NCBI GenBank assembly: GCA_964608765.1
Contig: CAZSPD010000001.1
Span: forward strand, 70,912-134,911
Length of the DNA: 64,000 nucleotides
DNA from: Candidatus Woesearchaeota archaeon
Lineage (GTDB): Archaea > Nanobdellota > Nanobdellia > Pacearchaeales > GW2011-AR1
Direction of reading: 5' to 3'
Shown here in pieces: positions 16,053 through 46,727 of this stretch. Each line of letters starts with the position of its first letter. Within the stretch, counting starts at the first letter, position 1. A program made the translations under genes and the position numbers. The notes beneath the pieces are model-generated. The model had not been told where the DNA came from. It did no database searches and was given only the letters and a program-made list of their open reading frames with translations.

Positions 16053-16087
16053 AGCACATTTATATAATTTGATTCTTATATTCTATA

Positions 16088-30933: not shown

Positions 30934-30984
30934 GCTAAATTTCTTATTAACTAATTATTTAAATCATCATTTTCTTATTATCTT

Positions 30985-32191: not shown

Positions 32192-32296
32192 GTTTTTAAT
32201 TATTTTTTTATGTTTATATAATTAATTGTAATTAATATTAATCAATTTTTTCTTTAAATTTTAGTCTTTTTTTAAATATTAAGTTTTCTTTAAATT

Positions 32297-32982: not shown

Positions 32983-35289
32983 TTACTCAACTACAACTGC
33001 TGTTTCTGTTGAAGTTACTCCTTTGTATTCCTTACTTGTATCTACAACTTTGTTTGTCAGATAAGTAGTCGCTTTTACAGTATCTTCAGCTTCATAACCA
33101 GCAACCAATAGAGCAAGTCTAGTTGTCAAAGTTGAATCATCATAGCCTTTGATTAGGAACTCTCCAGCTCCTATTCCTGTTGCTTCAGTCCAAGCAGCAC
33201 CACATTTAGTGCCACCAACTAATGCAGCAGCAGCTGAATTAATACAGCTTCCACCAACTATAATTAGATTCTTTGATGCAACACTTCCTACTTCAGTATC
33301 TTTAACAAGAATGTTTCCAAGAGTAGCATCCCCTCCTTCAGAGATAATTGTATCACCGCCAATAACTAATACTTTAGCAGTAACTTCCTCTCCATAGTAG
33401 TTGATTTCAAACTCATAGTCATCCTTTGTCTTATCAAAGATAACTTTTGAAGCTAGAGCACCTGGAACATATCCAATAGAGACATCCTTAGTTTCTTTCT
33501 CAAGAGAAAGACCTGTTACACTTGTAACATGTATACTATCTCCAGTTCCTCTTTGTTTAACAGTTGCAGTAATGGTTTGACCATCACTTCCAACATCACC
33601 ATCTTTGGTTTGTTCTTTGAAAATGATGCTAACACCATTTGCATTAAAGTTTGTAAAGTCTGTAGGTAATGTAACATGCATTCCAGTTTCTGAAACAGCT
33701 AAATTGTATAATGGAGTTCCTCCACTAAGGCCAGCAAAGTTTAGATATGCTGTTGTTTTATCTGCAGTAACACCTGAAAGTGTGATTTCAATATCTCCAA
33801 TTTCCTCTTCTAAATTATCTTCGTCAAGAGTAATTGTTTTTCCAGATATTAAATCTTCAATAACTACTTCGTATTTGATGTTTAGAGGATCATCATCATC
33901 ATCATAGTCAATACTTGTAATTTCACCATATAATGTTTGAACTTCATTCAAATCATTATTTTTCATTCTAGTTACTAAGAATCTGTAGTCTTCTTGCAGT
34001 TCTAGACCTTGATTTGCTTTCAAATTATCACCGCTATGACCAAAGATTGCAGGATATTCTGTTGAATTAAAACTAGTAGCTAAAATTAAAGGACGGTCTT
34101 CTTCACCTAATTTAGTTGCAGTTCCATTAGTCCACATAAGTGGAAGTTCATAGTTCTCCATTACAAGTGTAAGTTGTTCCCCAGGTTCAATAGAGATTTT
34201 CTCATATGTTGTTGGGAAATCTAATCCTTGGTATGAAAGACTTATTCCATCAAATGGAACAGGCATTCTAAGAGCATTATCTTCAGTTAAGAAACTATCA
34301 CCATCAGATTTCCATGTTAAAGTTATTGCAGTTAGTTTAGTGCCATCGTCAGCTAAATCTACTTCTAATCCTTTAACATAATCTTTATTTACTTTAACTC
34401 TCTTTCCGTCTTCTAATAATATTTTACCAGAACCAACAGAAAGTTCTACTTTACTAACACCTGATTCTTTTGGAGTATACATTATCTCATTGATAATAAC
34501 ATATGTTCCATCATTAAGTTCATGAGGTGAGTTTAATGATAACATTTTAGTTACTTCACCATCAACATTTAACTTAACGCCCTTATCAGTAACAAACTCA
34601 ATTGAAACACTCTTTCCAGAGATTGTTTTACTCTCTCCTTCACCAATAACTACTTTATTAGCTGAATCAAGTAATTCAATTGTGGTTGCAGTAGTATCTA
34701 GAACATAATACTCTTTACCCATTAAAGGTAAATTAGTCTCTTCTATACTTTCAAGAGCTACACCTCCACTTTTAAATTCAATTTTATAGTCTAGAATTTT
34801 CTCCCCACTACTAAAATCAAATCCTAAAGTAGGTTCTTTATCATTGTAGTTCTTATGAGTAAATAAATGAAGAGCTTTATTTCCTAACTCTATTTTTTGA
34901 GTGTAGTCTACATTTACATCTCCATCTTTGTAAGTTCCATCAGCTAAAAAATTCTTTAATTCTCCTTTTTTAAGAGTCGAGTATGGCACATTTAATGCCC
35001 CTCCTAAGTAGAATTTATTAGAATTTTTTTCTAAAACAAAAGATTCTCCACCTTCAACTTTTATGCTTCCGCCACTAACAGACTTTGACAAAGATTCTTG
35101 AATATTTCCAGCTTGGATAAAATCCAAATTAGAAACACCACTACCTGTTCCATAAACTATAGCTACATTTGCACTGCCCCCTGAAACAAATGGTGCAGGG
35201 TAATTTGCAGCTGCAGCAACACCCATAGTCATGCCTGTCATAAGTGCACTAGCAGCAATTGCCGATATCTTCTTAAAATTAAATTTCAT
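32983..35289 (-). CDS. S-layer protein (Methanococcales-type S-layer N- and C-terminal regions)
   Basis: Signal peptide MKFNFKKISAIAASALMTGMTMGVAAAA. C-terminal NLIIVGGSCINSAAAALVGG...LLVAGYEAEDTVKATTYL resembles the archaeal S-layer C-terminal domain. Strong SD (GGAGGT) lies 8 nt before the ATG. Confidence 0.75.
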   Translation of the reverse strand: MKFNFKKISAIAASALMTGMTMGVAAAANYPAPFVSGGSANVAIVYGTGSGVSNLDFIQAGNIQESLSKSVSGGSIKVEGGESFVLEKNSNKFYLGGALNVPYSTLKKGELKNFLADGTYKDGDVNVDYTQKIELGNKALHLFTHKNYNDKEPTLGFDFSSGEKILDYKIEFKSGGVALESIEETNLPLMGKEYYVLDTTATTIELLDSANKVVIGEGESKTISGKSVSIEFVTDKGVKLNVDGEVTKMLSLNSPHELNDGTYVIINEIMYTPKESGVSKVELSVGSGKILLEDGKRVKVNKDYVKGLEVDLADDGTKLTAITLTWKSDGDSFLTEDNALRMPVPFDGISLSYQGLDFPTTYEKISIEPGEQLTLVMENYELPLMWTNGTATKLGEEDRPLILATSFNSTEYPAIFGHSGDNLKANQGLELQEDYRFLVTRMKNNDLNEVQTLYGEITSIDYDDDDDPLNIKYEVVIEDLISGKTITLDEDNLEEEIGDIEITLSGVTADKTTAYLNFAGLSGGTPLYNLAVSETGMHVTLPTDFTNFNANGVSIIFKEQTKDGDVGSDGQTITATVKQRGTGDSIHVTSVTGLSLEKETKDVSIGYVPGALASKVIFDKTKDDYEFEINYYGEEVTAKVLVIGGDTIISEGGDATLGNILVKDTEVGSVASKNLIIVGGSCINSAAAALVGGTKCGAAWTEATGIGAGEFLIKGYDDSTLTTRLALLVAGYEAEDTVKATTYLTNKVVDTSKEYKGVTSTETAVVVE

Positions 35290-35522
35290 ATTTTTATAAC
35301 CTCCTTTCAGCTATATAATCATGTTGTCTATGACAACCTCTTACCTTCAATTTCGCAGTATAGGGAAACCGCTCAATTGAAACGTCTTAAGGTTAGCCTG
35401 TTTTTCAAGGCTTATTCCCTATATTTCACCCCCAAAGGTGTACTTACCAAAAATCATTTTCCTTTAAAAAGCTTACCCTCTCATAGAGGGACCATTTTCA
35501 CGAGACCTCAAGATTTGAAGGT

Positions 35523-35536
35523 TTTATTTATAAAGG
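35523..35536 (-). promoter_or_regulatory. candidate TATA box (CCTTTATAAATAAA on minus strand) for the S-layer gene, implying a ~210-nt leader
   Basis: Best match to the window's recurrent TTTATAAA core in the 470-bp intergenic region. Alternative weaker boxes exist nearer the ATG. Confidence 0.35.
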
Positions 35537-35637
35537 TTATGCTGTCACTAGAATATAAATACACATTTTTAATGCCAAATACACTAATCTTTTTTTCTAA
35601 AAACAAAACATTTATTAACATATGGTATATAATTGTA

Positions 35638-35662
35638 ATATATGTTAAATTTTAACATATAT
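35638..35662. repeat. perfect 25-bp palindrome ATATATGTTAAA-T-TTTAACATATAT
   Basis: Read directly. A third half-site TTAACATAT lies at 35615-35623. About 100 bp upstream of the wHTH gene. Confidence 0.85.
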
Positions 35663-35760
35663 ACAGAAAATAAACTAAGAACAAGCTTGAATTTACAAAA
35701 GTTATCGACGACAAAATAAAGATGAATTAAACCTAAGATAAAAATAAACTAAAAAATCAA

Positions 35761-36114
35761 ATGGCAAAAGCAAAAACAAGGGAAATAACAATCAAAGAAA
35801 GCAAAGGAGCATTTTCAATATTCAAAACCTCAGATTCCTCTAAAAAAGACTATGATTTCTCAGGAATATTAGCTTTAAGGCAATTATTAAGCAATGAAAA
35901 AGCAAGGATTTTACACCTCTTAAAAACAGAAAAACCCCTCTCAATTTACGACTTAGCTAAGAGACTTAATAGAGGTTTTAAATCAGTAAATGATGATATT
36001 AAACTCCTAAAAAGATTTGGATTTATTGAATTAATACCTGAAAAAACTAAAAACAGAGTAAGGCACAGACCTGTAATTGCGGTTGATAAAATAACAATTC
36101 ACTTAAATATCTAA
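35761..36114 (+). CDS. winged helix-turn-helix DNA-binding protein (ArsR/HVO_A0114-like)
   Basis: LRQLLSNEKARILHLLKTEKPLSIYDLAKRLNRGFKSVNDDIKLLKRFGFIELIP is a wHTH pattern. 117 aa. Confidence 0.6.
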   Translation: MAKAKTREITIKESKGAFSIFKTSDSSKKDYDFSGILALRQLLSNEKARILHLLKTEKPLSIYDLAKRLNRGFKSVNDDIKLLKRFGFIELIPEKTKNRVRHRPVIAVDKITIHLNI

Positions 36115-36617
36115 CCATACACTCTAAATGAAATAATTGTATTTCCTGAAAACTCTTGCTCAGAGCCTCTGTAGTTATTAGTAACTACCCCTCCATCTAC
36201 ATTTAAGAGCATTTTATTGCTTTCCCCCCTACTATCTGAAACATTTATACTAAAAGAATATCCTTTTACAATTCCATTAGGACTTGCTTTCCAACTCTCT
36301 TTTATTAATTCTTTAATTGTATTATTCAATATGACACAAGAATCCATTTCCCTATAACTGCACACTTCCTCATTGTTACACTTAGTGATTAAATCCTGAA
36401 CACTTAAGTTTCCATTTCTATCTTCACACACTGTTGTATACTGAAGAATGGACTGTATAAAGCTCCCAGCTTCATAATCTTCAACAAGATATGAAGGCTT
36501 TTTAAGATAAACTCCTAAAAAAACCAAAAATATTACTGCAACTAATATAATAATTAGTCCAAAACCCACCATCTCTTCTTGCCCTTCTTTCCTAGTTATT
36601 ATATTTCTTAATTTCAT
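36111..36617 (-). CDS. type IV pilin-like protein (class III signal peptide), unknown function; operon gene 7
   Basis: N-terminus MKLRNIITRKEGQEEMVGFGLIIILVAVIFLVFLGVYL: a charged segment, G-Q, then ~22 hydrophobic residues. 4 Cys. Has a 4-nt overlap with the upstream gene. Confidence 0.6.
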   Translation of the reverse strand: MKLRNIITRKEGQEEMVGFGLIIILVAVIFLVFLGVYLKKPSYLVEDYEAGSFIQSILQYTTVCEDRNGNLSVQDLITKCNNEEVCSYREMDSCVILNNTIKELIKESWKASPNGIVKGYSFSINVSDSRGESNKMLLNVDGGVVTNNYRGSEQEFSGNTIISFRVYG

Positions 36618-37141
36618 TTCATATCTCCAAATCCAACTATTATTTTACCTAACTCACACTTAGTAACCCTTTTTCCATTGTAAACCTCCCCCCTACAAAG
36701 TGCAACATAACTATATCTATCTGGAGCATCTGGATTATCTACAATTGTTATGAGATCGCAATTAGGATAATTTCCCTTAGTACACTCAATATTTAAATTT
36801 GCAGAACTTGATTTAGGATAAATTCTTCTAATCTCTAAACTAGTAACCCCCCAAAAATTCCTATACTTTTCAAGATTATCTTTAAGCATCATTACCTTAT
36901 CTAAATCAACACAGTTTGTTCTTTCTCTACCATACGCTGTTTCACAATTAAACTCAGGAGAATTTGCAATTCTAGACGCTAATAATTTAGCATTTTGTTC
37001 TTTAAGCATATTTGCATTTTTATGTAAATTATTTAGAAAAATAGAAATTGCAATCATTCCTACAAGTGCAAAAAATATAAACACAATAACCAGCATAAAT
37101 GACATTTGCTGAATCTTCATCTGTGCTTTTTTATTTACCAT
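36614..37141 (-). CDS. type IV pilin-like protein (class III signal peptide); operon gene 6
   Basis: MVNKKAQMKIQQMSFMLVIVFIFFALVGMIAISIFL. 6 Cys. Has a 7-nt overlap with the upstream gene. Confidence 0.6.
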   Translation of the reverse strand: MVNKKAQMKIQQMSFMLVIVFIFFALVGMIAISIFLNNLHKNANMLKEQNAKLLASRIANSPEFNCETAYGRERTNCVDLDKVMMLKDNLEKYRNFWGVTSLEIRRIYPKSSSANLNIECTKGNYPNCDLITIVDNPDAPDRYSYVALCRGEVYNGKRVTKCELGKIIVGFGDMK

Positions 37142-38097
37142 AATTTACATTCACTCCACTTATTTTTATTATCAATCTCTTCTGCAAAAGAAATTATTGT
37201 CCCAACCTCAGAAGATTCACTAAAATCCTTTAAAAGAGATATCATCTGAATTAGTTCAAAGTCTAATTCTGAATAACAATTTGTTTTTTGAAGAATAAAC
37301 TTTGATTTATCTTTATAGATTGTATATATTTGTTCAGCTCTTTTCATTAATCTATCTAATTGACACTCATACAATTCTTTATCAGAAAATATTGCAGCAT
37401 ACATTAATGCATCTCCTTCATAATACACTCTTGAATTAGTTTTTTGAACATATTTCAATCTAGTTGATATAATAACATCACACCTCTCACTCCCATCAAA
37501 ACACACACTCACACTATCTGTAGGACAATCAGCTTTTCTTTTTTTAATAATAAAGTTTTCATAAGGTGAAGGCTCTTCTCCAATAAATCCTTCTAATTCC
37601 CTTTCAATATCTCTCGGAGTATTAACAAAACAATATATATCACGAGTAGAAGTTATATAGATTAAATCTGCAATTTTAAAAGGCATCTCAAATGGCTTTG
37701 AAAAAACATAAAAATTTCTCCCTTCAACAGGGTTTTTTGAGAAAATATATCTGTTTTGCATTCCTATTTCAAATCTTTCATTTTCACTCCACTCATTAAA
37801 AACTTTCTGGGAGGTTTCTATTGACTGCCTCCCGAATGTACTTAAATTAGAACACCCAACATACACTCTTGCATCACCTTTACTGTCAATTAAAATTCTT
37901 TTTGCACTTTCAAAACTTGATTCAAATGGGTTTGTTAAAATACTCAAACCCATTGCCCCCTGAGCACTTATCTGAGTCTTATAAATTCCGATGAATTTTG
38001 TAACCCCATATATTGCTAGGACAAGAATAAATACTCCTGCGATTATTGCAAAAATCCAAGAGAAAGGCATTTGAATATCTCCTTTTTTATTTTTCAT
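37135..38097 (-). CDS. type IV pilin-like protein (class III signal peptide), 320 aa; operon gene 5
   Basis: MKNKKGDIQMPFSWIFAIIAGVFILVLAIYGV. 9 Cys by my count. Has a 4-nt overlap with the upstream gene. Confidence 0.6.
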   Translation of the reverse strand: MKNKKGDIQMPFSWIFAIIAGVFILVLAIYGVTKFIGIYKTQISAQGAMGLSILTNPFESSFESAKRILIDSKGDARVYVGCSNLSTFGRQSIETSQKVFNEWSENERFEIGMQNRYIFSKNPVEGRNFYVFSKPFEMPFKIADLIYITSTRDIYCFVNTPRDIERELEGFIGEEPSPYENFIIKKRKADCPTDSVSVCFDGSERCDVIISTRLKYVQKTNSRVYYEGDALMYAAIFSDKELYECQLDRLMKRAEQIYTIYKDKSKFILQKTNCYSELDFELIQMISLLKDFSESSEVGTIISFAEEIDNKNKWSECKLW

Positions 38098-38558
38098 TTT
38101 AACAGTTTAACGAGGTTCTCATTACGGTCTTTTTTTATATTAACAAAAAATCTACCATTTTTAACATCAATGCAAAGTCTCCTATTTAAGCTCCCTGGCC
38201 CTGTAACTGTTCTAAGAATATCTATATTTTTAAGGAGCACTCCCCCATATTCACGAGGGAGATAATACATATTTTCATATTCTTTATCTTCAAAACAAAC
38301 TTGAGTTATTTTTTTTGGAAGATGATATTCAAAAGGTTTAGATATTGAATCACTTCTAAATGCACTATTTATTTCATCTTGTAAATCACTTTCAAATTTT
38401 GCCATCTTCGCTATTCTATCTATCTCTAAGAATTTAGATATCCCGTATATTGCAAATGCAATAAATACAACAATAAGGATAATTGAGAAAATAACTCCAA
38501 ACCCCATTTGAATTTGGGCTTTTTTATTTTCTTTTAAATCCCTCTTCTTTAAATTCAT
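38094..38558 (-). CDS. type IV pilin-like protein (class III signal peptide); operon gene 4
   Basis: MNLKKRDLKENKKAQIQMGFGVIFSIILIVVFIAFAIYGI shares the K-K-[AG]-[QD]-IQM-x-F motif with genes 5 and 6. Confidence 0.6.
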   Translation of the reverse strand: MNLKKRDLKENKKAQIQMGFGVIFSIILIVVFIAFAIYGISKFLEIDRIAKMAKFESDLQDEINSAFRSDSISKPFEYHLPKKITQVCFEDKEYENMYYLPREYGGVLLKNIDILRTVTGPGSLNRRLCIDVKNGRFFVNIKKDRNENLVKLLK

Positions 38559-38608
38559 AATTAATTAAATTATTCTTATTTTATAAAGATTTCATTTACA
38601 AAACCTAA

Positions 38609-41110
38609 TTAAATTAATTGTGCAATTTCAAAAGGTCTTACAATTATGCTACACACTCCATCAAAAGGAGAATTCCCATACTCGTCAAAACATTTAACAT
38701 ACAAGTCTTTTGAAGAATCCCAATCTACATAGTGATTTAATCCATCTCCTGTCTCAAACAATATACCGTCTTCTACATCATACACACACGAAACAGTTGA
38801 GTAAACACATTCTGATTCTTCATTAGTTATTATCTTAAGTGAGTTGGACCCCTCGTCTTTAAACACCCTTATTATTGAAGGAGGGTAAGTATCTGTTTCA
38901 ATAACAAAGTTAATCATTGTTTCATCAACATTATCTGCAATATCCATACACTTTATATTCATCGTATAAGCCCCTGCAGGCATATACAGTTCTTCAGTGT
39001 TTGTTGTTAAATAATCCATATCACCATAATTAGAGAAGAATGAATAACTACTTTCGTCATTACTGTTTACCGAATATAAACATTTAGCTTTTCCTCCCTC
39101 TGCTCCATTAGAGGTTAGAACATCTATTTTAATCTCTGCACTTATATCTGGACTTCTTATTGTTGTTCCGTTTTGCTTATTATTTATCCTTGCAGTTTGA
39201 ATTATTAATCTATTTGTTCCAATTAAAATAACTTCATAAGGTACTCCAGTATTTCTTTGATTCTCTTTTGCTACATTGCCTTTATATTCTGGTTTGTCCC
39301 TACATGCAATATAATACTTGTTTTCCTCACTATTTCTAAATTGAGTTAAATTAGTTCTACATCCATAATCAAATCCTGCAATGTAATCATCTATATTTTG
39401 GCTACATCTCTCAAATTCATAACTCATATATTCATAATTCACTTTTCTTGTATCCCATCTACAATCTGCAGGTTCATCTGTATATACTTGGAAATCTTCT
39501 ATATACACTGTTCCAGATTTAATATAAGACCCACTAGAAGGATTACTCTCAAGTATTTTTGGAAGTGTTTTATCTGGACCCATTTGAACACAGAATTCCA
39601 TAACATAATCTACATTATTGATATTCTCCCAGTAATCTGAACATCTAATGTAGAATTTGTAATTTCCCCCATTATCCAAAGAGTATCCTGCATTTTTAAA
39701 TGCCTCACTGCTAGCAGCTACACTTGAAGGAAGCTGCACTGTATGATTCTTTACATATACTGTACCCTCAAACATTGGTTGCATTCTCTCAAAAGCCTCT
39801 TTAGAGGTACCAGTTGTTGGTTCAAGTGAAATCTTACAATACGCTTCTTCATTAGTTTTAAATGCTAATGTAATTGGAGTGTATGTAGGAACACACTTAT
39901 TTGTTCCCCCTCCCTCACCATTATAAATTATCTTTGTTGCAGTAGCTGAGCTTTGATAATCGAATAAATTAGATTGGAAAACCTTTTCACCATAAATCTC
40001 TTTTACAGGCTCTATAATTGGAGCAGACTTATCATTTGGATTACCAATAGTACAAGTCTCATATCCCTCGTTACCTTTATTAAACCAAACACATGCTGCA
40101 CCATAAGTGTGGCAAATATATTCACTGCATCCACTAACTTTATTATCTCCAACACCTATTGTTAAAGAATTACATTTCTCACAATCATTTCCTCCAAGAG
40201 GTGCTTGCCACATTAAAACTCTATAAGTGTAGGTATCACTAGAATATACTTGATATCCAAAAAACATATAGAGTCCAAATGCAAGTGCTACAACTCCTCC
40301 CGCAATACCCATACTTGCTAAAACAGATAGTTTTGCCATCCCAATCATTCCTATTGCTGCAGCAGGTGCAACACTTATCCAAGTTACTAATCTTATATCT
40401 CCCATATTTCTTTCACTTGCAAATTTTTTCATAATAGAATTTATTATTATCGCAACAGCAGCTGCAGCTGCAGCATTCATTAAAAATTGTCCTAAAACTC
40501 CACTAAAGGTAGAGGGATTCCCACTGAAGAATCCTTCATGAATAGGTTTTATTGTATTTAAGAAAGCATCATTTGCAGCAGCGTCTTTTAATATTTCTGC
40601 TTCAAGTGCATTATCTATCATCATTCCAGTTTCAGGATCAATAAACCAAGATTTAACAATTTCTTTACTAGCTTCTCCTCCTGCTTTTTTACTAAATAAT
40701 CTTTTAAAAATATTTTTAGCCCCTTTAATATTTTCACTTGTTTGTTTAATATTATTTACTGAATTTAAAACTGTTACACCTGTTCCAACCGCATTTCCAA
40801 TATTAATTTTTTTTGGAGGGTCTTCTGGTGGAATTGCAATACAAGCCCCCCCAACACATTCTTGACCATCTTCACACACTTTTTCTTTTATACCATTAGT
40901 AATATCACAAGCTCCATTTTTTAATACTCCAGTATAAACCGAATTTCCAACACAAGCTTTACATGAATCTCCTGCTCCAGCAGCACTCACTACCTTAACT
41001 TGACTCTCTCCAACAAGCCACGAAAATGCAACTATTGCAATAACTAATAATAAAATTTGCAAGATACTAATAACCTTCAATTCCTTTTTTCTTCTCTTTT
41101 TATTTTTCAT
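38609..41110 (-). CDS. large polytopic membrane protein with Cys-rich N-terminal knob and repeated Cys-bracketed beta-sandwich-like modules; operon gene 3
   Basis: 833 aa. Signal anchor, then GDSCKACVGN...CEDGQECVGGACIAIPPEDPP, then three Ala/Gly-rich TM segments. The ~520-aa ectodomain has four modules of the type x-C-x-[YW]-[SD] ... Y-x-[YFMV]-x-[IV]-x-C-x-D. Confidence 0.55.
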   Translation of the reverse strand: MKNKKRRKKELKVISILQILLLVIAIVAFSWLVGESQVKVVSAAGAGDSCKACVGNSVYTGVLKNGACDITNGIKEKVCEDGQECVGGACIAIPPEDPPKKINIGNAVGTGVTVLNSVNNIKQTSENIKGAKNIFKRLFSKKAGGEASKEIVKSWFIDPETGMMIDNALEAEILKDAAANDAFLNTIKPIHEGFFSGNPSTFSGVLGQFLMNAAAAAAVAIIINSIMKKFASERNMGDIRLVTWISVAPAAAIGMIGMAKLSVLASMGIAGGVVALAFGLYMFFGYQVYSSDTYTYRVLMWQAPLGGNDCEKCNSLTIGVGDNKVSGCSEYICHTYGAACVWFNKGNEGYETCTIGNPNDKSAPIIEPVKEIYGEKVFQSNLFDYQSSATATKIIYNGEGGGTNKCVPTYTPITLAFKTNEEAYCKISLEPTTGTSKEAFERMQPMFEGTVYVKNHTVQLPSSVAASSEAFKNAGYSLDNGGNYKFYIRCSDYWENINNVDYVMEFCVQMGPDKTLPKILESNPSSGSYIKSGTVYIEDFQVYTDEPADCRWDTRKVNYEYMSYEFERCSQNIDDYIAGFDYGCRTNLTQFRNSEENKYYIACRDKPEYKGNVAKENQRNTGVPYEVILIGTNRLIIQTARINNKQNGTTIRSPDISAEIKIDVLTSNGAEGGKAKCLYSVNSNDESSYSFFSNYGDMDYLTTNTEELYMPAGAYTMNIKCMDIADNVDETMINFVIETDTYPPSIIRVFKDEGSNSLKIITNEESECVYSTVSCVYDVEDGILFETGDGLNHYVDWDSSKDLYVKCFDEYGNSPFDGVCSIIVRPFEIAQLI

Positions 41111-41116
41111 TTTTTA

Positions 41117-43417
41117 TTAGTCCTCAGGATATACACAACACACTCTGTTTGCAGGGCAAACAGCTCCTGTATTTTCTTCTCCTCCTGTGCATGGGTTAGG
41201 ATTATTTATTGTACTAACGCACATTCCTCCGTAGGAAGTAAAGCAATCACTATTACCTGCAATACCATTTTCTGATTCTGATATTGGAAGTGTTGTCTCA
41301 TATCTTTCTAAATCTCCTGTAAGATATTTATCTCCTTTGTAGATAATTTGTTCTACAGTTACATTCTTTTTAACTTCTCCACTTTGTTTTAATTTTTGGA
41401 AAATAGATGTTATTAATTCTGACTCAGGATTACCTTGCTTCCCATTAACTGCAGTTTTATATCCACAATCTCCTAATGATTTAGCTCTTTCAGTTATACT
41501 CATAATAAATTCTTGATTAGTTAAATAAATAGGATAATCTCTTTCTTTTCTTTCATCTTTTTCTTCACTTCCAAAGACAGGAGTACAATCATAAGCCTGT
41601 CCTGTAACTCTTCCTGTTGCAAGTTTATTAGGTTTTCCATCTTTAGTACAATACTGTCCTCTTCTTAAAGAAAGTGTATAACTACTTACCACATTTGGAA
41701 GTTTAAATTCAGATTCATCATAAAACTCAGTTAAAAGACTGTATAGGTTAGGACAATTCCGTGTTCCAAGATTTCCTCCTCCATTACTACACACAACATC
41801 TTCTGGATATATTTTTGTTCCATTAAATGGAAACTCTTTACCATATCCAGGAATAGCATAACATCCACTAACACATCTTGCTGCAAGTTCACCATCAGTC
41901 CACTCAGTCATACTTTTCCTACTTTTATACACAGGAGTTTCATATAGTGCACTTTCAATAACTCCTCCCATTGCACATATTCCAAACCCTTTACTTGAAG
42001 TACCATTCCAAAAATCAAATCCAGGTGGAATTAGTGGAACACACGAACCTTGCATTTCTTTTCTATATTCTTCAGGAACAGTTTCACCATCCCATCTATA
42101 TCCTGGAATCCATTTACATAAAGAAAGAAGATTTTCACATTGTGTTTTAGTTTCAGCAGAAGTACATCCCATCCAAGGATTAAAAACACACGAAGCCTGA
42201 CTTCTTTTTGAATAATCATCTATGCCTTGAATGCAAACAGCATTCCTATAGTCTGCACACTCTTCAACTATTACTTCTCCAGAAGAACAATACATCTTAT
42301 AATATCTGCTTCCAGGAAGATTATATTTAGACACATTTTTTAATGCGTTTCTGTCTGAGGTAAATAATTCCCCTGTTGTTAAGTTTTGATTAATTAAAAG
42401 AGTCCCAGGACTTTCAGCACACCAACTCTCACCATGTTGATATGTTTTTCCATTATATTTACAGCTTAAATCTCCACAAACAAGCCCATTATCATTATTT
42501 GAAGGTTTTAAATTAAACCCTGCTTCCCTATACCCTCTACAAACAGTATTAAGTGTAGAATCACAATTCCCACACGTTGCACTTCCAGAAACACCTACCT
42601 TACAGAGGTTTTCATCATATCCTGTTAAAAAGTGTGTCCAATAGTTAGCATTATTGTATTTACTTGAGTCATATATATTTGCTAAGTTCCCACACGAATC
42701 AAGATAATACACTTTACCTTCATGACAAATTGTGTTTTTAGTTGGAGCACAATCTGAAAGCCCAACCCCATTTATACTCGCAGTACATAATAATCCTTTG
42801 TGAAATCTTATCTCTATTTTATCATATGACTGAGAATTCTTTAAGTGCCCTGAAAGTTCATCTATTCTAGAATTAGTACACCCTGTATTTGTTTTCATAA
42901 CACACGCTACTTCTGTTTCTGTACTTATTACACACGCTCCCACACCTTCATTTAAAGCTATTGAATTAAGTTCACACATTTCTCTTGTTGTAATTTCTCT
43001 TTTTATTTCACCTTGAATCCCAAAATCACTAAACATATTTTTACACTCTTTTTCATTAATAAAATACGCCTCTAATCCAATAACACAACATATTTCTTGA
43101 CAAGCTGGAACTTTTTCTATTGAATTTTGACTCCAGCTTCCCCCAGATTCTAAACACAGTGTTTTAGGAGTGTATTCACTACACTGTCCTGTATTTAGAT
43201 TAACACATGTTCCAGTACATTCAGGAACAGAGCTACATGCATCTTTATACCAGCTTTTGTATTTTGCATCACAAGCATTGATATTATCTGCAGCTTGACA
43301 CCACATTCCACCATCTTTTAATTTTTCACAACATATTGCAGAAATATTTACAGCTCCGAGTATTAATAGTATAAAAGTAAAAATAATCAAACTTGTATTT
43401 TTTCTCATTTTAAACAT
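41117..43417 (-). CDS. secreted cysteine-rich protein (766 aa, about 50 Cys); operon gene 2
   Basis: Signal peptide MFKMRKNTSLIIFTFILLILGAVNISA. Cys are spread over the whole length. C-terminal module SDCFTSYGGMCVSTINNPNPCTGGEENTGAVCPANRVCCVYPED. Confidence 0.55.
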   Translation of the reverse strand: MFKMRKNTSLIIFTFILLILGAVNISAICCEKLKDGGMWCQAADNINACDAKYKSWYKDACSSVPECTGTCVNLNTGQCSEYTPKTLCLESGGSWSQNSIEKVPACQEICCVIGLEAYFINEKECKNMFSDFGIQGEIKREITTREMCELNSIALNEGVGACVISTETEVACVMKTNTGCTNSRIDELSGHLKNSQSYDKIEIRFHKGLLCTASINGVGLSDCAPTKNTICHEGKVYYLDSCGNLANIYDSSKYNNANYWTHFLTGYDENLCKVGVSGSATCGNCDSTLNTVCRGYREAGFNLKPSNNDNGLVCGDLSCKYNGKTYQHGESWCAESPGTLLINQNLTTGELFTSDRNALKNVSKYNLPGSRYYKMYCSSGEVIVEECADYRNAVCIQGIDDYSKRSQASCVFNPWMGCTSAETKTQCENLLSLCKWIPGYRWDGETVPEEYRKEMQGSCVPLIPPGFDFWNGTSSKGFGICAMGGVIESALYETPVYKSRKSMTEWTDGELAARCVSGCYAIPGYGKEFPFNGTKIYPEDVVCSNGGGNLGTRNCPNLYSLLTEFYDESEFKLPNVVSSYTLSLRRGQYCTKDGKPNKLATGRVTGQAYDCTPVFGSEEKDERKERDYPIYLTNQEFIMSITERAKSLGDCGYKTAVNGKQGNPESELITSIFQKLKQSGEVKKNVTVEQIIYKGDKYLTGDLERYETTLPISESENGIAGNSDCFTSYGGMCVSTINNPNPCTGGEENTGAVCPANRVCCVYPED

Positions 43418-44228
43418 AGGGAAGACTTCTTACTGCAAATCTAAAATCCTCCATGGTATTTAAGTCAGTTACAACATATATTTTTGAATCATCTCCTTTT
43501 CTATGCTTTTCAACTCTCATATAAGGATTATCATACATATATGCTTCAGGCATAGCATCTCCAATATTCATTTCCCAAATTAAAATATTCTTTGATATTT
43601 CAAGCATTTCATGTAAACTACTGCTTATCTCAATATTAAAGTTTCTGTATGTTTCAGATTCGTCTCCTTTTTTAAGTGCAAGTGTACTATTAAAATCAAC
43701 TAATATTGTCCTTGGAAGTATTTTAACATAGTTCTTTCCTCTATTCAAATTTACATCATATCCTTTATCTTTATAGCTTTTTTCTAAGCTTACAAAACAA
43801 TTATCAACAGTTTCTTGTATAGAATTTAATATTTCAGATTCAATATGTTCAGTTAAAAATGGTTCTTGATTAATGCAGGGTAATGTTAAGTATTCATCAG
43901 TGTAGCACAAATATCTGACATATTTAGCATCTTCTTTATCACTCCTTTTATAAAGATACCCTGTTCTTTCATCTGTAATATAATTTCCTCCTTGGGATTT
44001 TATAATGAGTGTATTTTCTTCAAATTCTTTCTCAACACAAGTTCGGATATATCCTATAGGATTTTTAGTGTCTTTTCCTCCAGATGGAAACAGTTTTGGA
44101 TAATATAAAATAATTAAAGCAATGATTGCAACAACAAGAAGTGCTATAATAATAAATATAGTAACTTGTCCTCTAAAATTTTTTGGAAGAATTTCTATCT
44201 TTCCTCCTTTCTCCTCTTTTACATTCAT
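43410..44228 (-). CDS. type IV pilin-like protein (class III signal peptide), 272 aa; operon gene 1
   Basis: ...LPKNFRGQVTIFIIIALLVVAIIALIILYYP: R-G-Q followed by a hydrophobic helix. Has an 8-nt overlap with the next gene. Confidence 0.55.
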   Translation of the reverse strand: MNVKEEKGGKIEILPKNFRGQVTIFIIIALLVVAIIALIILYYPKLFPSGGKDTKNPIGYIRTCVEKEFEENTLIIKSQGGNYITDERTGYLYKRSDKEDAKYVRYLCYTDEYLTLPCINQEPFLTEHIESEILNSIQETVDNCFVSLEKSYKDKGYDVNLNRGKNYVKILPRTILVDFNSTLALKKGDESETYRNFNIEISSSLHEMLEISKNILIWEMNIGDAMPEAYMYDNPYMRVEKHRKGDDSKIYVVTDLNTMEDFRFAVRSLPYV

Positions 44229-44305
44229 TTTTTATTAAGGAAATAGTTGTTTAAAAATATTTCTTAAATAAGAAGTATACAATTAATTTATTTTATAATA
44301 GAAGC

Positions 44306-45110: not shown

Positions 45111-46727
45111 ATGGAATTTAAAGAAATTTCCTTTAAAGAGAGGAGAATAAGAAAAATTACTAATCTCTATTATTCAAATCCTGAAATACAAAAGGCAATT
45201 TTTGATTTCTCAAAAAATAGAGAAATTTGTCCAAGATATTTTGAAGGATTTGGAAAAAGACCAGATTCTTTTGAATACTCTGGAGATGTGTTTGAGCTTG
45301 TTAAAAGAGGAGCAACTTCTTTTAATTGTTCAGAAGAACTTTGGTCAGATCCTCTTAAAATTGAAACAGGAATGACAGAAAGGCAATTGAATGAATTAAG
45401 AATAGGATGGGACTTACTAATTGACATAGACTGTAAATATATTGATTTTAGTAAAAAAGCAGCACAGGCAATAATCAAAGTGTTTAAACAACACAAGATT
45501 AAAAATTATGGAATAAAATTTTCAGGCAATAAAGGATTTCACATAATTCTTCCATTCAAAGCCTTTCCAAAAGAAATAGCAGGAGAAAAAACAAAAGACT
45601 TATTTCCAGAATTACCTAGAAAAATCCTTTCTTACGTAAGATTCAAAGCAGAAGAAGAGATGAATAATTTAATTTCTGAAGATGAATTAGCTTCATTTAA
45701 GGATACAGAAATAAAAAAAGGAATAAAGTGTAATAATTGTAGGGAACTTGCTCAAGAATATGAATTAGTTGAGTATTTTTGTCCTAAGTGTTTTAGAAAA
45801 GAAATAAAAAAAGTTTTTTCAGAAAAAAAGAAGGACCTTAAATGTCCTGATTGTAGAACTCTCTTTAAAATAAATAAAATAGAAAAAATATATGAGTGTA
45901 AAAAATGCAATATTTCTTCAAGAGATAAACCAGATAATTTTTCTCGCCATGTTGAAATAGATTTATTTGAATTAATGGGTTTAGATTTAATACTTATTTC
46001 TCCAAGACATTTATTTAGAATGCCTTACTCTCTTCACGAAAGTAGCGGATTAGCAAGCATAGTGCTTAGTGAAAAAGAACTAGAAAATTTTGATTTAAAA
46101 GATGCTAATCCATTAAATGTTCAAATAAAAAACTTTATGCCAGATTCTAAAGATAATGAAGCAGGATATTTAGTTAGAGAAGCTTTAGACTGGGTAAAAC
46201 AAAATCAGATTTATGCAGGGGAATCAAAAGAGATTTTAAGAGGAAAATATGCAGATTTCAAACCAATAAAAATTGATAATATTTTAGATGAGCAATTTCC
46301 ACCATGTATTAAAAATATTCTTAAGGGAATGGCAGATGGAAAAAAACGATCCTTATTTGTACTCATTAATTTCTTTCGTTCAGTTGGAATGGAGAAAGAG
46401 GAACTTGAAAAAAGAATTTACGAATGGAATAAAAAGAATAACCCTCCTTTAAGAGAAGGATATGTTTACTCTCAACTTTCATGGGCATATAAAAGAAAAC
46501 CAATACTACCTCCAAATTGCAGAGAATTTTATCAAGGGATTGGGGTTTGTGAACCAGATGAGCTTTGCAACCACATCAAAAATCCTGTAAATTATTTAAT
46601 AAGAAAAAATTATCTTTCAACAAATAAATCTGAAAGAAAATTAAAAGATAAATCTGCAAAAAAGTCTCCTAGCACAACTAGAAATTTACAAAATAAAAAT
46701 AAAATTAAAAACCCTAAATCAAACTAA
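45111..46727 (+). CDS. priS: fused DNA primase: PriS catalytic domain + zinc-ribbon insert + PriL-CTD-like Fe-S domain
   Basis: PriS motifs DLLIDIDC and FSGNKGFHI. Insert has 4 CxxC pairs. The C-terminal FPPCIKNILKG...RSLFVLINFF...NCREFYQGIGVCEPDELC resembles the PriL C-terminal 4Fe-4S domain (4 Cys). Confidence 0.75.
   Translation: MEFKEISFKERRIRKITNLYYSNPEIQKAIFDFSKNREICPRYFEGFGKRPDSFEYSGDVFELVKRGATSFNCSEELWSDPLKIETGMTERQLNELRIGWDLLIDIDCKYIDFSKKAAQAIIKVFKQHKIKNYGIKFSGNKGFHIILPFKAFPKEIAGEKTKDLFPELPRKILSYVRFKAEEEMNNLISEDELASFKDTEIKKGIKCNNCRELAQEYELVEYFCPKCFRKEIKKVFSEKKKDLKCPDCRTLFKINKIEKIYECKKCNISSRDKPDNFSRHVEIDLFELMGLDLILISPRHLFRMPYSLHESSGLASIVLSEKELENFDLKDANPLNVQIKNFMPDSKDNEAGYLVREALDWVKQNQIYAGESKEILRGKYADFKPIKIDNILDEQFPPCIKNILKGMADGKKRSLFVLINFFRSVGMEKEELEKRIYEWNKKNNPPLREGYVYSQLSWAYKRKPILPPNCREFYQGIGVCEPDELCNHIKNPVNYLIRKNYLSTNKSERKLKDKSAKKSPSTTRNLQNKNKIKNPKSN

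What the first reader, a model, noticed from the sequence alone, without database searches (positions are those of the whole stretch)
36111..44228. Seven-gene translationally coupled operon: five type IV pilin-like proteins plus two very large Cys-rich proteins, with no assembly machinery nearby
All seven minus-strand ORFs are packed with overlaps of 4-8 nt or gaps of 50 nt or less (43417/43410, 41117/41110, 38609/38558, 38097/38094, 37141/37135, 36617/36614). Five products begin with a short charged segment, then G/A-Q/D, then a ~20-residue hydrophobic helix, which is the archaeal class III (prepilin) signal architecture. The five N-termini are FRGQ-VTIFIIIALLVV, KKAQ-IQMGFGVIFSIIL, KKGD-IQMPFSWIFAIIA, KKAQ-MKIQQMSFMLVIV and KEGQ-EEMVGFGLIIIL. 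Three of them share an IQM-x-F motif right after the putative cleavage site. Between pilin-like gene 1 and genes 4-7 sit a 766-aa secreted protein with about 50 Cys and an 833-aa polytopic protein with repeated ectodomain modules. I recognise none of the mature domains. The window has no PilB/FlaI-type ATPase, no PilC/FlaJ platform and no prepilin peptidase. One candidate function is a cell-cell attachment fibre with tip adhesins in a host-dependent archaeon. That interpretation is inference.
Basis: partly seen in the sequence, partly recalled or inferred. Interest (0 to 1): 0.8.

Follow-up and report, generated by a model that had tools for sequence, protein, structure and literature searches.

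The report
Prepilin-like surface adhesin gene cluster
Seven tightly packed genes in a tiny host-dependent (DPANN) archaeon encode five pilin-like proteins and a split giant adhesin-like surface protein; the block is conserved in hundreds of related genomes, is uncharacterised, and is a plausible cell-attachment device.

Summary
All seven minus-strand ORFs are at the stated coordinates. The block recurs in at least 301 species-level genomes of Woese-/Pace-/Nanoarchaeota.

Five products carry a conserved prepilin-type (class III) site, [KR]-[GA] followed by Q/x, directly before a ~22-residue hydrophobic helix. At -1, G/A is 74/74 in P1 and 56/56 in P5. At +1, Q is 74/74, 45/46 and 44/45 in P1, P6 and P7. 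Leader length varies from 0 to 47 residues. None of the other 16 window ORFs with an N-terminal hydrophobic segment has this motif.

The 766-aa protein is Sec-secreted, has 50 Cys, and matches no known family. The 833-aa protein has an N-terminal hydrophobic helix plus three central ones, and a confident stalk of tandem Ig-like domains. The two are fused into one protein in 27 cases elsewhere, so they act as one unit.

Two refinements:
- The block is probably two transcription units, P1+766+833 and a quartet P4-P7.
- It sits in a cell-envelope gene island with S-layer genes and pacearchaeosortase.

No pilus ATPase, platform or peptidase lies in the window. No secretion-type ATPase lies within 10 kb in any of 88 loci. 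Published Woesearchaeota MAG surveys do report flaI/J/K.

Best reading (about 0.5): a minor-pilin or pseudopilus-like complex presenting an adhesin. This is a new variant of a known kind. Function is inferred.

The parts
43410..44228 (-). P1: prepilin-like protein (272 aa). Leader MNVKEEKGGKIEILPKNFRG, then Q+1 and a hydrophobic helix, then a ~230-aa ectodomain with 4 conserved Cys. It always lies immediately upstream of a large Cys-rich protein.
   Evidence: ORF. (-1 G/A 74/74, +1 Q 74/74, +5 F 73/74). (P1->BIG junction <=20 nt in 62/67). (841 representative clusters). (no known family).
41117..43417 (-). N-type large protein (766 aa). Sec-type signal peptide (…GAVNISA|ICCEK), 50 Cys, no membrane anchor. 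Probably the distal ectodomain subunit of the split giant protein.
   Evidence: (about 34 invariant Cys in 39 orthologues). (no Pfam or PDB match). (30% identity, E 3e-45, to the N-terminal half of fused 1,040-1,385-aa proteins).
38609..41110 (-). C-type large protein (833 aa). N-terminal hydrophobic helix, small Cys-rich beta domain (aa ~49-92), disordered linker, three hydrophobic helices (aa ~205-284), then a ~530-aa stalk of tandem Ig-like beta-sandwich domains with about 20 invariant Cys.
   Evidence: (AF2: residues 300-830 at pLDDT ~90, all-beta). (Foldseek: 422 PDB hits at E<=1e-3, all tandem Ig/Fn3 adhesion or surface proteins). (Big_13 in 10/28 members).
38094..38558 (-). P4: prepilin-like protein (154 aa), KKA|QIQMGFGVIFSIILIVVF. 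First gene of the quartet.
   Evidence: -1 G/A/S 46/54; +6 F 53/54. (N-terminal 83 columns homologous to P5, hhalign probability 97.6%). (TATA-like element upstream in 62% of loci).
37135..38097 (-). P5: prepilin-like protein (320 aa), KKG|DIQMPFSWIFAIIAG. Long N-terminal helix, then a beta-sheet domain, then a C-terminal helical bundle. 8 invariant Cys.
   Evidence: (AF2 pLDDT 84.9, pTM 0.79, helix 12-58). (no PDB or viral fold match at E<=1e-3). (658 homologues, all unnamed).
36614..37141 (-). P6: prepilin-like protein (175 aa), KKA|QMKIQQMSFMLVIVF.
   Evidence: +1 Q 45/46, +3 K/R 46/46, +5 Q 45/46, +6 Q 43/46, +9 F 44/46.
36111..36617 (-). P7: prepilin-like protein (168 aa), KEG|QEEMVGFGLIIILVAV.
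   Evidence: +1 Q 44/45, +3 E 44/45, +6 G 45/45, +7 F 45/45.
44250..44257 (-). Candidate archaeal TATA box (TTTTTAAA) about 26 nt upstream of the P1 start codon. This spacing fits a leaderless transcript of unit A. Inferred.
   Evidence: sequence. (similar element in 43/79 P1 genes).
38579..38587 (-). Candidate internal TATA box (TTTATAAAA) about 25 nt upstream of the P4 start codon, in the conserved 50-nt gap. Possible promoter of unit B. Inferred.
   Evidence: sequence. (conserved gap). (37/60 P4 genes).
35761..36114 (+). Convergent neighbour: HVO_A0114-type winged-helix regulator. It is conserved between the cluster and the S-layer-like gene and is a possible regulator. Association is by synteny only.
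   Evidence: PF25212, E 1.8e-15. (present in 42 loci at this position).

Best explanation
The region holds two adjacent, co-oriented units that are conserved across Woese-/Pace-/Nanoarchaeota.

Unit A consists of P1 (prepilin-like) and a split giant surface protein. One part of that protein is the 766-aa, Sec-secreted, disulfide-rich distal domain. The other part is the 833-aa subunit, which is held in the membrane by hydrophobic helices and raises a stalk of about five tandem Ig-like domains.

Unit B is a translationally coupled quartet of prepilin-like proteins (P4-P7).

Proposed mechanism: the five prepilin-like proteins are inserted via Sec. A FlaK/PibD/EppA-type class III signal peptidase encoded elsewhere cleaves them after the conserved G/A. 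They then bundle through their N-terminal helices into a short type-IV-filament-like assembly. That assembly could be a minor-pilin 'priming/tip' complex or a pseudopilus. It would be driven, if at all, by an ATPase/platform pair encoded elsewhere. P1 would couple this assembly to the adhesin pair, so that the Cys-rich domain is displayed at or beyond the S-layer for attachment to other cells or surfaces.

Shown here: the gene structure, the conservation, the processing-site motif, the hydrophobic helices, the even sets of invariant Cys, the Ig-like stalk, and the fusion of the 766 and 833 types.

Inferred: cleavage, helix bundling, which protein contacts which, and the attachment function.
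For: (1) The class III-type site is conserved while the leader varies.
- P1: -2 K/R 69/74, -1 G/A 74/74, +1 Q 74/74.
- P5: -1 G/A 56/56.
- P6: -1 A/G/S 46/46, +1 Q 45/46.
- P7: -1 G/A/S 44/45, +1 Q 44/45, +3 E 44/45.
- Leader lengths range from 0 to 47 residues.
- The motif is absent from the other 16 window ORFs with an N-terminal hydrophobic segment.

(2) The hydrophobic segments are TM-length, not Sec h-regions. The P5 model has a 47-residue N-terminal helix followed by a beta-sheet. P4 and P5 are homologous over the first 83 columns only, and P6/P7 and P1/P5 only over the N-terminus. This is the usual pattern for pilins.

(3) A coupled quartet plus a fifth pilin-like gene plus large non-pilin proteins is the architecture of minor-pilin/adhesin modules. 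Junctions overlap in most of 45-67 loci.

(4) The 833-aa protein has a confident tandem Ig-like stalk whose best PDB matches are adhesion proteins: the GhpA grappling hook, NCAM, Sidekick and RTX adhesin repeats.

(5) The 766 and 833 types are fused in 27 proteins, and the P1+BIG unit duplicates as a unit.

(6) Every family has an even set of invariant or near-invariant Cys, which fits extracytoplasmic disulfides.

(7) Literature:
- Woesearchaeota MAGs mostly carry flaB/H/I/J/K (PMC11606122, PMC5994134).
- Archaeal major pilins and machinery are often encoded at separate loci (PMC6098224).
- Archaeal T4P loci often hold five or more minor pilins plus large Cys-rich adhesin or S-layer-like proteins, and a nanoarchaeal ATPase clade had no identifiable cognate pilins (PMC4858521).
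Against: - No secretion ATPase, platform protein or A24 peptidase is in the 64-kb window. No T2SSE-type ATPase is within about 10 kb in any of 88 loci, 1.4 Mb in total.
- One preprint states that T4P components are missing in DPANN genomes (10.1101/2020.05.14.094862).
- None of 190 family members matches a Pfam pilin model. The window proteins match no NCBIfam pilin model.
- Only P1 fits the strict FlaFind hexapeptide pattern as I recall it (not re-checked against a source). P4-P7 have polar residues at +3 to +6.
- The confident P5 model has no solved-pilin match. Its helix segment 31-60 has low pLDDT, so packing of the helix on the globular domain is not shown.
- No candidate major pilin is in the cluster.
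- The 833-aa protein is polytopic and cannot leave the membrane on a fibre.
- The neighbourhood (S-layer-like gene, PACE-CTERM putative S-layer protein, pacearchaeosortase) fits an envelope-structure role equally well.
Confidence: 0.5

Rival explanations
1. Membrane-anchored envelope complex, not a filament. The five small proteins keep their leaders and act as type II signal-anchor proteins. Their conserved N-terminal helices pack with the hydrophobic helices of the 833-aa protein. The complex organises or anchors the S-layer or pseudoperiplasm, for example as a spacer or pillar under the S-layer.
For: - The cluster is conserved next to an HTH regulator and an S-layer-like gene (34 of 42 loci with the HTH). 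It is also near pacearchaeosortase and its PACE-CTERM putative S-layer protein.
- The 833-aa protein is polytopic with a roughly five-domain Ig-like stalk of pillar-like dimensions.
- No ATPase is ever nearby.
- No pilin model or fold match was found.
- Coupled translation suggests an equimolar complex.
Against: - A signal anchor gives no reason for an invariant G/A at -1 and K/R at -2 at the exact n/h boundary when leader length varies from 0 to 47 residues. These are the determinants of prepilin peptidases.
- Neighbouring TM-anchored envelope proteins (c9, c10) lack the motif.
- Synteny with PCNA and primase shows that part of the neighbourhood conservation is general collinearity, not functional linkage.
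Confidence: 0.25
2. Bindosome- or T2SS-like pseudopilus. The processed pilin-like proteins form a short membrane-proximal pseudopilus whose job is to export or position the large Cys-rich proteins through the S-layer. They would not themselves act as an adhesive fibre.
For: - Class III signals occur on non-filament surface proteins in Sulfolobus bindosomes (PMC6098224; 10.64898/2026.04.22.720090).
- A quartet of coupled pilin-like genes parallels GspH-I-J-K (knowledge of T2SS).
- The 766-aa cargo-like protein is Sec-secreted and has no anchor.
Against: - No secretion ATPase, platform protein or secretin-like partner lies in or near any locus.
- There is no homology to Gsp or Bas proteins.
- The 766 type is covalently fused to the membrane subunit in 27 proteins. 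Such fused forms need no separate export device.
Confidence: 0.1
3. Competence-like DNA-uptake pseudopilus. One major-like plus four minor pilin-like proteins (as in ComGC-GG) would work with a secreted ComEA-like DNA-binding protein encoded about 6 kb away.
For: - A secreted helix-hairpin-helix (HHH_3, E 1.6e-16) protein lies at 50650-51246 and recurs near the cluster in several loci.
- The count of five pilin-like genes matches ComGC-GG.
- Ultra-small archaea and bacteria are reported to carry competence genes (PMC9938205).
Against: - The HHH gene is separated from the cluster by PCNA, primase and a 1100-aa gene, and sits in generally collinear territory.
- The Com system has no counterpart of the two giant Cys-rich proteins.
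- No ComGA/GB/EC lies nearby.
Confidence: 0.06
4. Chance ORFs or an annotation artefact in AT-rich DNA.
For: The genome is about 30% GC, where long spurious ORFs are uncommon but short ones occur.
Against: All seven ORFs have hundreds of full-length homologues at 25-80% identity with invariant Cys patterns and conserved order.
Confidence: 0.01

Closest known systems
Archaeal type IV pilus (TFF) loci with several minor pilins plus large Cys-rich adhesin or S-layer-like proteins. Examples are clade/system 1 (Epd-type, Methanococcus maripaludis) and Thermoproteales subclade 4G (Makarova, Koonin & Albers 2016, PMC4858521).
   Same: - Several (five or more) small proteins with class III signals.
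- Large signal-peptide or membrane proteins with conserved Cys in the same locus.
- A positive residue at -2, G/A at -1 and (in EppA substrates, from my own knowledge) Q at +1.
- System 1 is reported in some DPANN (10.64898/2026.04.22.720090).
   Different: - No ATPase, TadC/FlaJ platform or peptidase in the locus in any of 88 genomes sampled.
- No sequence match to any arCOG- or Pfam-derived pilin model available here.
- The large protein is polytopic and split or fused in a lineage-specific way.
- The mature domains are new families.
Bacterial minor-pilin/PilY1 operon (fimU-pilVWXY1Y2E of Pseudomonas aeruginosa) and the T2SS GspH-I-J-K quartet.
   Same: - A set of four or five co-transcribed pilin-like genes plus a large non-pilin, Sec-secreted protein.
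- The operon lies away from the pilB/C/D machinery.
- Stoichiometric (coupled) expression, expected for a priming or tip complex.
   Different: - No homology to these proteins.
- No G|F-T-L-I-E motif and no methylation domain context.
- The large partner here includes an integral-membrane subunit.
- Different domain of life. This is an analogy only.
Sulfolobus bindosome (Bas) and other class III-signal surface proteins that are not filaments.
   Same: Prepilin-type signals on proteins with sizeable, non-pilin ectodomains. A possible short membrane-proximal assembly rather than a long fibre.
   Different: No sugar-binding domains, ABC transporters or BasE/F ATPase/platform genes nearby.
Tandem Ig-like repeat adhesins and stalks (Aureispira GhpA grappling hook, RTX adhesin extender repeats, metazoan IgSF adhesion molecules, Deinococcus HPI S-layer).
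   Same: The 833-aa C-terminal ~530 residues fold as a chain of beta-sandwich domains (Foldseek E down to 1.4e-11; Big_13 hits).
   Different: - Only the generic fold is shared: identity is about 10%, and TM-scores are low because of domain orientation.
- The conserved Cys pairs, the central hydrophobic helices and the partner proteins are unique to this family.

Membership tests
Class III (prepilin-type) signal peptide proteins / archaeal type IV pilin-like proteins | A short, positively charged leader ending in [KR] at -2 and G/A(/S) at -1, immediately before the hydrophobic segment (the cleavage site lies N-terminal to the H-domain). | tested here: met
   -1 G/A(/S): P1 74/74, P4 46/54, P5 56/56, P6 46/46, P7 44/45. 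-2 K/R in 74-93%. Leader length is variable. The window sequences fit, except that P7 has E at -2 and P5 has D at +1.
Class III (prepilin-type) signal peptide proteins / archaeal type IV pilin-like proteins | A ~20-25-residue hydrophobic N-terminal helix retained on the mature protein, continuing as a long alpha-1 helix. | tested here: met
   (a single TM-length hydrophobic segment in each). (P5 model: helix 12-58). Only P5 was modelled, and residues 31-60 have low confidence.
Class III (prepilin-type) signal peptide proteins / archaeal type IV pilin-like proteins | Strict FlaFind pattern [KRDE][GA][ALIFQMVED][ILMVTAS]x3 (pattern recalled from Szabo et al. 2007). | tested here: inconclusive
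   By direct reading, P1 (RGQVTI) fits. P4 (KAQIQM), P5 (KGDIQM), P6 (KAQMKI) and P7 (EGQEEM) fail at +3/+4 because of polar residues. The pattern is from memory and was derived from few lineages.
Class III (prepilin-type) signal peptide proteins / archaeal type IV pilin-like proteins | A match to curated pilin or archaellin N-terminal models (Pfam Class_IIIsignal, Pilin_N, TadE, Flp; NCBIfam arch_flag_Nterm). | tested here: not met
   (window proteins, E<=1). (116 P4/P6/P7 and 74 P1 orthologues, E<=0.05). Only noise-level TM hits were found. P5 orthologues were not scanned as a set.
Class III (prepilin-type) signal peptide proteins / archaeal type IV pilin-like proteins | A globular domain with a pilin fold similar to solved pilins. 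| tested here: not met
   The P5 model (pLDDT 84.9) has no PDB match at E<=1e-3. The PDB sequence-profile searches gave only non-significant N-terminal hits: PilE1 at E 0.25 for P4 and archaeal flagellin at E 1.3 for P1. P1, P4, P6 and P7 were not modelled.
Class III (prepilin-type) signal peptide proteins / archaeal type IV pilin-like proteins | Actual cleavage by an A24-family prepilin peptidase (PibD/FlaK/EppA). | not testable with these tools
   This needs N-terminal proteomics or an in-vitro cleavage assay.
Type IV filament (TFF) system | A cognate secretion ATPase (PilB/FlaI), platform protein (PilC/FlaJ/TadC) and class III peptidase in the same genome. | tested here: inconclusive
   Absent from the 64-kb window. 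No T2SSE-type ATPase lies in about 10-kb flanks of 88 loci. The rest of this genome could not be read. At lineage level, the literature reports flaI/J/K in most Woesearchaeota MAGs (PMC11606122, PMC5994134), but one preprint says T4P parts are missing in DPANN (10.1101/2020.05.14.094862).
Minor-pilin + PilY1-type tip adhesin module | Homology of the large protein to PilY1/PilC adhesins, or of the small proteins to FimU/PilV/W/X or GspH-K. | tested here: not met
   Searches found no such hits. The resemblance is architectural only.
Tandem Ig-like (Big/Fn3-type) surface adhesin or stalk proteins | Repeated beta-sandwich domains detectable by structure or profile. | tested here: met
   For the 833-aa protein: confident all-beta C-terminal 530 aa; 422 PDB matches at E<=1e-3; Big_13 10/28, Y_Y_Y 6/28, DUF4625 5/28.
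Operon (single transcription unit of seven genes) | No internal promoter; junctions tight throughout. | tested here: inconclusive
   Junctions are tight, except for a conserved ~40-nt gap before P4. TATA-like hexamers are enriched 18-36 nt upstream of the start codon for P1 (54%) and P4 (62%) only. No transcript data are available.

The most novel reading that the evidence does not exclude
The cluster encodes a lineage-wide host-contact organelle of Woese-/Pacearchaeota. Five processed pilin-like proteins would form a machine-independent (or minimally powered) helical bundle that carries a giant disulfide-rich protein. The central hydrophobic segment of that protein would not be an anchor in the symbiont's own membrane. 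It would insert into the host membrane and initiate the tight junctions or cytoplasmic bridges seen between DPANN cells and their hosts.
Probability: 0.1. Interest if true: 0.85.

Novelty: new variant of a known kind. Interest (0 to 1): 0.6.

Why it matters
Woese- and Pacearchaeota are among the most abundant uncultivated archaea, and their genomes suggest dependence on other cells. How they attach to partners is unknown.

This cluster is conserved in at least 301 species-level genomes, and its families have hundreds of protein clusters in metagenomes. It combines prepilin-type proteins with an adhesin-like giant protein, and every component is annotated 'hypothetical'. It is a concrete, testable candidate for their attachment apparatus.

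It may also supply the 'missing' cognate pilins noted for nanoarchaeal pilus ATPases (PMC4858521).

It adds six protein families with no match in Pfam, NCBIfam or PDB sequences (the 833-aa family has only generic Ig-like domain hits), and one fold with no PDB match (P5).

If the proteins prove to be uncleaved, the strictly conserved G/A-Q boundary motif would itself need a new explanation.

Tried and rejected
- **Exact-sequence contig look-up.** The 833-aa protein and its identical cluster member were 'not on record'. The rest of the source genome (a 215-kb contig) could not be read.
- **Genome scans.** The first genome scan, with a single sequence, found nothing. The profile scan worked.
- **Third homologue search.** The A1 profile added only one new sequence, because the candidate list saturated at 8000. 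The 833 model therefore rests on 28 sequences.
- **Sequence-family searches.** Pfam and NCBIfam on all seven proteins gave nothing. PDB sequence-profile searches for all seven families gave nothing significant.
- **Scans of family members against Pfam.** Sets of 116, 74 and 39 members hit no pilin or adhesin model for the small proteins or the 766 family.
- **Foldseek on the P5 model.** No match at E<=1e-3 against PDB or viral structures.
- **766 versus 833 homology.** Rejected by direct BLASTP. They are linked only through fused proteins.
- **Two 5-TM, ~240-aa proteins (15318-16813) as PibD/FlaK-type peptidases.** Rejected: they are DedA/VTT family.
- **The 5-TM c12 protein as a prepilin peptidase.** Rejected: it is pacearchaeosortase.
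- **Link to the arCOG01314/arCOG02884 'novel secretion system' and to DPANN family cls.004306/NEQ255 (PMC5898192, PMC6393860).** It could not be mapped without those sequences, so the lead is left open.
- **Rfam.** Only the tRNA was found.
- **phmmer of P1 against 1.84 billion representatives.** The 150 best hits listed are all same-length, same-family proteins, so it showed no bridge to known pilins.

Full report
**1. The observation**

I call them P1 (272 aa), 766, 833, P4 (154 aa), P5 (320 aa), P6 (175 aa) and P7 (168 aa).

The window is about 30% GC. It carries archaeal housekeeping genes typical of DPANN archaea:
- form III RuBisCO, AMP phosphorylase, FtsZ, SepF and ribosomal proteins;
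- PCNA;
- a protein that matches both primase subunit families, so probably a fused PriS-PriL primase.

None of the seven proteins matches any Pfam or NCBIfam model.

The 766-aa protein has exactly 50 Cys and a Sec-type signal peptide. The 833-aa protein has 26 Cys, an N-terminal hydrophobic helix and three central hydrophobic helices. Each of the five small proteins has one TM-length N-terminal hydrophobic segment.

**2. Conservation**

A homologue search with the 833-aa protein found 28 relatives. Contigs carrying them show the same seven genes in the same order, flanked by PCNA on one side and by an HVO_A0114-type HTH regulator plus an S-layer-like gene on the other.

A profile scan of one genome per species found 301 confirmed loci. 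Most carry Woesearchaeota, Pacearchaeota or Nanoarchaeota names; the rest are labelled only 'archaeon', and two carry bacterial names. I fetched 80 of them.

I called and clustered ORFs over 88 loci, 1.4 Mb in total. The consensus order is:

PCNA | [P1 + large protein] x1-3 | large protein, P4, P5, P6, P7 | <HTH | S-layer-like> c9 c10 <c12 <c14

P5 alone has 658 homologues in the protein database, all unnamed. P1 has 841 representative clusters at 50% identity. The ORFs are therefore real genes under selection, and the arrangement is not chance.

**3. The N-termini**

I aligned 45-74 orthologues per family. Counting residues around the putative site gives the following.

| Family | -2 K/R | -1 | +1 Q | Other conserved positions |
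|---|---|---|---|---|
| P1 | 69/74 | G/A 74/74 | 74/74 | +5 F 73/74 |
| P4 | 40/54 | G/A/S 46/54 | 29/54 | +6 F 53/54 |
| P5 | 49/56 | G/A 56/56 | not conserved | +6 F 56/56 |
| P6 | 39/46 | A/G/S 46/46 | 45/46 | K/R+3, Q+5, Q+6 near-invariant |
| P7 | 36/45 | G/A/S 44/45 | 44/45 | E+3 44/45, G+6 and F+7 45/45 |

The leader before this site varies from 0 to 47 residues.

Of 21 window ORFs with an N-terminal hydrophobic segment, only these five have the motif. The neighbouring TM-anchored envelope proteins c9 and c10 do not.

A basic residue at -2 and G/A at -1, at the boundary N-terminal to the hydrophobic domain, is the recognition site of prepilin (class III) peptidases (PMC6098224, PMC4858521). 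From my own knowledge, Q at +1 is characteristic of EppA-processed Epd pilins. I take this as strong, though indirect, evidence for class III processing.

Against formal membership:
- Only P1 fits the strict FlaFind hexapeptide pattern as I recall it.
- No window protein or orthologue hits any Pfam pilin model, and the window proteins match no NCBIfam pilin model.
- PDB profile searches give only non-significant N-terminal matches: PilE1 at E 0.25 and an archaeal flagellin at E 1.3.

**4. Structures**

P5 was modelled with 102 homologues. The model has pLDDT 84.9 and pTM 0.79. It shows a helix over residues 12-58, then an antiparallel beta region, then a C-terminal helical bundle. Foldseek finds no PDB or viral match at E<=1e-3, so the mature domain has no recognisable relative. 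The helix segment 31-60 has low confidence.

Profile-profile comparison shows that P4 and P5 share homology over their first 83 columns (probability 97.6%). P6/P7 and P1/P5 share only the N-terminus. This is the usual situation among pilins.

The 833-aa model used 28 sequences. It is confident (pLDDT about 90) from residue 300 to 830 and is all-beta there. Foldseek returns 422 PDB matches at E<=1e-3, all of them chains of Ig/Fn3-like domains:
- fragments of the Aureispira grappling-hook protein GhpA;
- PTP-delta, NCAM, Sidekick, contactin and cadherins;
- RTX adhesin repeats;
- the Deinococcus HPI S-layer.

Ten of 28 family members hit Pfam Big_13. This part is an adhesin or stalk-type ectodomain.

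The 766 family has about 34 invariant Cys and no Pfam or PDB relative.

**5. The two large proteins are one unit**

They are not similar to each other. However, 27 proteins of 1,040-1,385 aa in other loci combine a 766-type N-terminal half with a hydrophobic region and an 833-type C-terminal half. The match of the 766-aa protein to one such fused protein is 30% identity, E 3e-45.

Architectures over the 88 loci are split pair (30), fused plus split pair (18) and two fused (4). P1 precedes each unit, and P1 plus its large protein duplicate together. By the usual gene-fusion argument, the 766-aa and 833-aa proteins of this window work together, probably with P1.

**6. Transcription units**

Junction distances across loci are as follows.

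| Junction | Spacing |
|---|---|
| P1 -> large protein | <=20 nt in 62/67 |
| P4 -> P5 | mostly overlapping or tight |
| P5 -> P6 | mostly overlapping or tight |
| P6 -> P7 | mostly overlapping or tight |
| large protein -> P4 | conserved gap, median 43 nt; <=20 nt in only 6/49 |

TATA-like hexamers lie 18-36 nt upstream of the start codon in 54% of P1 genes and 62% of P4 genes. The figure is 0-20% for P5, P6, P7 and the large proteins. In the window these elements are TTTTTAAA at 44250-44257 and TTTATAAAA at 38579-38587.

I therefore read the block as two adjacent units, [P1-766-833] and [P4-P7]. This is inference from sequence, in an AT-rich genome.

**7. Machinery and context**

The window has no T2SSE-type Walker A protein. 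Its polytopic proteins are an AI-2E transporter, two DedA/VTT paralogues, an M50 peptidase and pacearchaeosortase; two short ones remain unidentified, a 130-aa four-helix protein with no Pfam match and a 149-aa ORF that was not scanned. No T2SSE-type ATPase lies in the roughly 10-kb flanks of any of the 88 loci. I could not read the rest of the source genome.

The literature is mixed:
- Most Woesearchaeota MAGs are reported to carry flaB/H/I/J/K (PMC11606122, PMC5994134).
- TFF 'system 1' occurs in some DPANN (10.64898/2026.04.22.720090).
- One preprint states that T4P components are missing from DPANN genomes (10.1101/2020.05.14.094862).
- Makarova et al. noted a nanoarchaeal ATPase clade whose cognate pilins could not be found. 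They also noted that archaeal T4P loci often hold five or more minor pilins plus large Cys-rich adhesin or S-layer-like proteins (PMC4858521).
- Major pilins are often encoded away from the machinery (PMC6098224).

The neighbourhood is an envelope island. It holds an S-layer-like protein (32983-35289), pacearchaeosortase (NF033505, E 4e-62) and its PACE-CTERM 'putative S-layer protein' (NF033506, E 1e-121).

**8. Interpretation**

The best-supported reading, with confidence about 0.5, has four parts:
- The five proteins are class III-signal, pilin-like proteins, processed by a peptidase encoded elsewhere.
- They bundle into a short type-IV-filament-like assembly, either a minor-pilin/priming complex or a pseudopilus.
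- P1 links this assembly to the split giant protein.
- The giant protein's Ig-like stalk and disulfide-rich distal domain serve attachment.

The main rival, at about 0.25, is a non-filament envelope complex of uncleaved signal-anchor proteins, related to S-layer organisation. It fits the context and the lack of machinery, but it does not explain the invariant -1/-2 positions.

Lesser rivals are a secretion or bindosome-like pseudopilus (about 0.1) and a competence-like DNA-uptake pseudopilus working with the nearby ComEA-like protein (about 0.06).

**9. Novelty**

The general kind is known: a pilin-like gene set with large Cys-rich surface proteins. This cluster differs in five ways:
- it is consistently separated from any machinery;
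- its large protein occurs in split and fused forms;
- its quartet-plus-one organisation is its own;
- six of its seven protein families have no match in Pfam, NCBIfam or PDB sequences, and the seventh (the 833-aa family) has only generic Ig-like domain hits;
- it is very widely conserved in Woese-/Pacearchaeota.

I rate it a new variant of a known kind, interest 0.6.

Noticed in passing
window 29320-31536: A pacearchaeosortase (30985-31536, NCBIfam NF033505, E 4e-62, conserved Cys/Arg/His positions) lies next to its presumed substrate. The substrate is a CARDB-containing PACE-CTERM 'putative S-layer protein' (29320-30933, NF033506, E 1e-121) with a C-terminal TM and basic tail. Together with the S_layer_C-like 768-aa protein (32983-35289), the region 29-50 kb is a cell-envelope gene island.
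   Followed up: partly
window 46787-50089 (+): A 1100-aa protein with 90 Cys. It has a signal peptide, a weak squalene-cyclase/TED-like segment (aa ~297-347), many Cys-rich repeats, one C-terminal TM and a proline-rich tail. It is conserved beside primase and PCNA in 20 loci. Function unknown.
   Followed up: partly
window 50650-51246 (-): A secreted helix-hairpin-helix protein (HHH_3, E 1.6e-16, ComEA-like DNA-binding module) with an N-terminal signal peptide. It recurs near the cluster in several loci with two small unknown genes (c15, c29). It is a possible extracellular DNA receptor.
   Followed up: partly
window 45111-46727 (+): A single 538-aa protein matches both the small (PF01896) and large (PF04104) primase subunit families. 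It appears to be a fused PriS-PriL primase, divergent from PCNA. The PCNA-primase pair is syntenic with the cluster in 26-32 loci, which looks like general collinearity.
   Followed up: no
window 35290-35760: A 470-nt gene-free stretch lies between the S-layer-like gene and the HTH gene. Roughly 35330-35520 looks richer in G+C than its surroundings by eye. There is no Rfam match. It could be a long 5' UTR or promoter region of the S-layer-like gene, or an unknown RNA.
   Followed up: partly
window 31562-32878 (-): Two conserved TM-anchored proteins (c9, 193 aa; c10, 209 aa), each with four Cys (most of them conserved), always follow the S-layer-like gene (28-30 loci). They have no family match, and they lack the [KR]-[GA]-Q motif.
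   Followed up: partly
window 38609-41110, N-terminus; alignment A1: The N-terminal helix of the 833 family has its own conserved pattern, K-x-[IL]-[AS]-x-x-[QE]-I-x-I-L-V-I-A-T-I-A-F-S-W. I could not tell whether this is an uncleaved anchor, a Sec signal or an atypical class III-like site.
   Followed up: no
window 15318-16813 (+): Two tandem paralogous 5-TM DedA/VTT-domain proteins (244 and 241 aa; PF09335, E ~1e-26). I first suspected prepilin peptidases because of their size and topology.
   Followed up: yes
loci L002, L031, L047, L074, L076 and others: In many Pacearchaeota the P1 + large-protein unit is present two or three times, often as one fused 1,040-1,385-aa form plus one split form. 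The P4-P7 quartet stays single-copy. Some loci have unrelated genes inserted between the units (for example L030, L056, L075).
   Followed up: partly
window 13370-14857 and 61488-62753: AMP phosphorylase-like (495 aa) and form III RuBisCO (421 aa) genes are both present. These are the enzymes of the nucleotide-salvage AMP pathway, which from my own knowledge is common in DPANN genomes.
   Followed up: no
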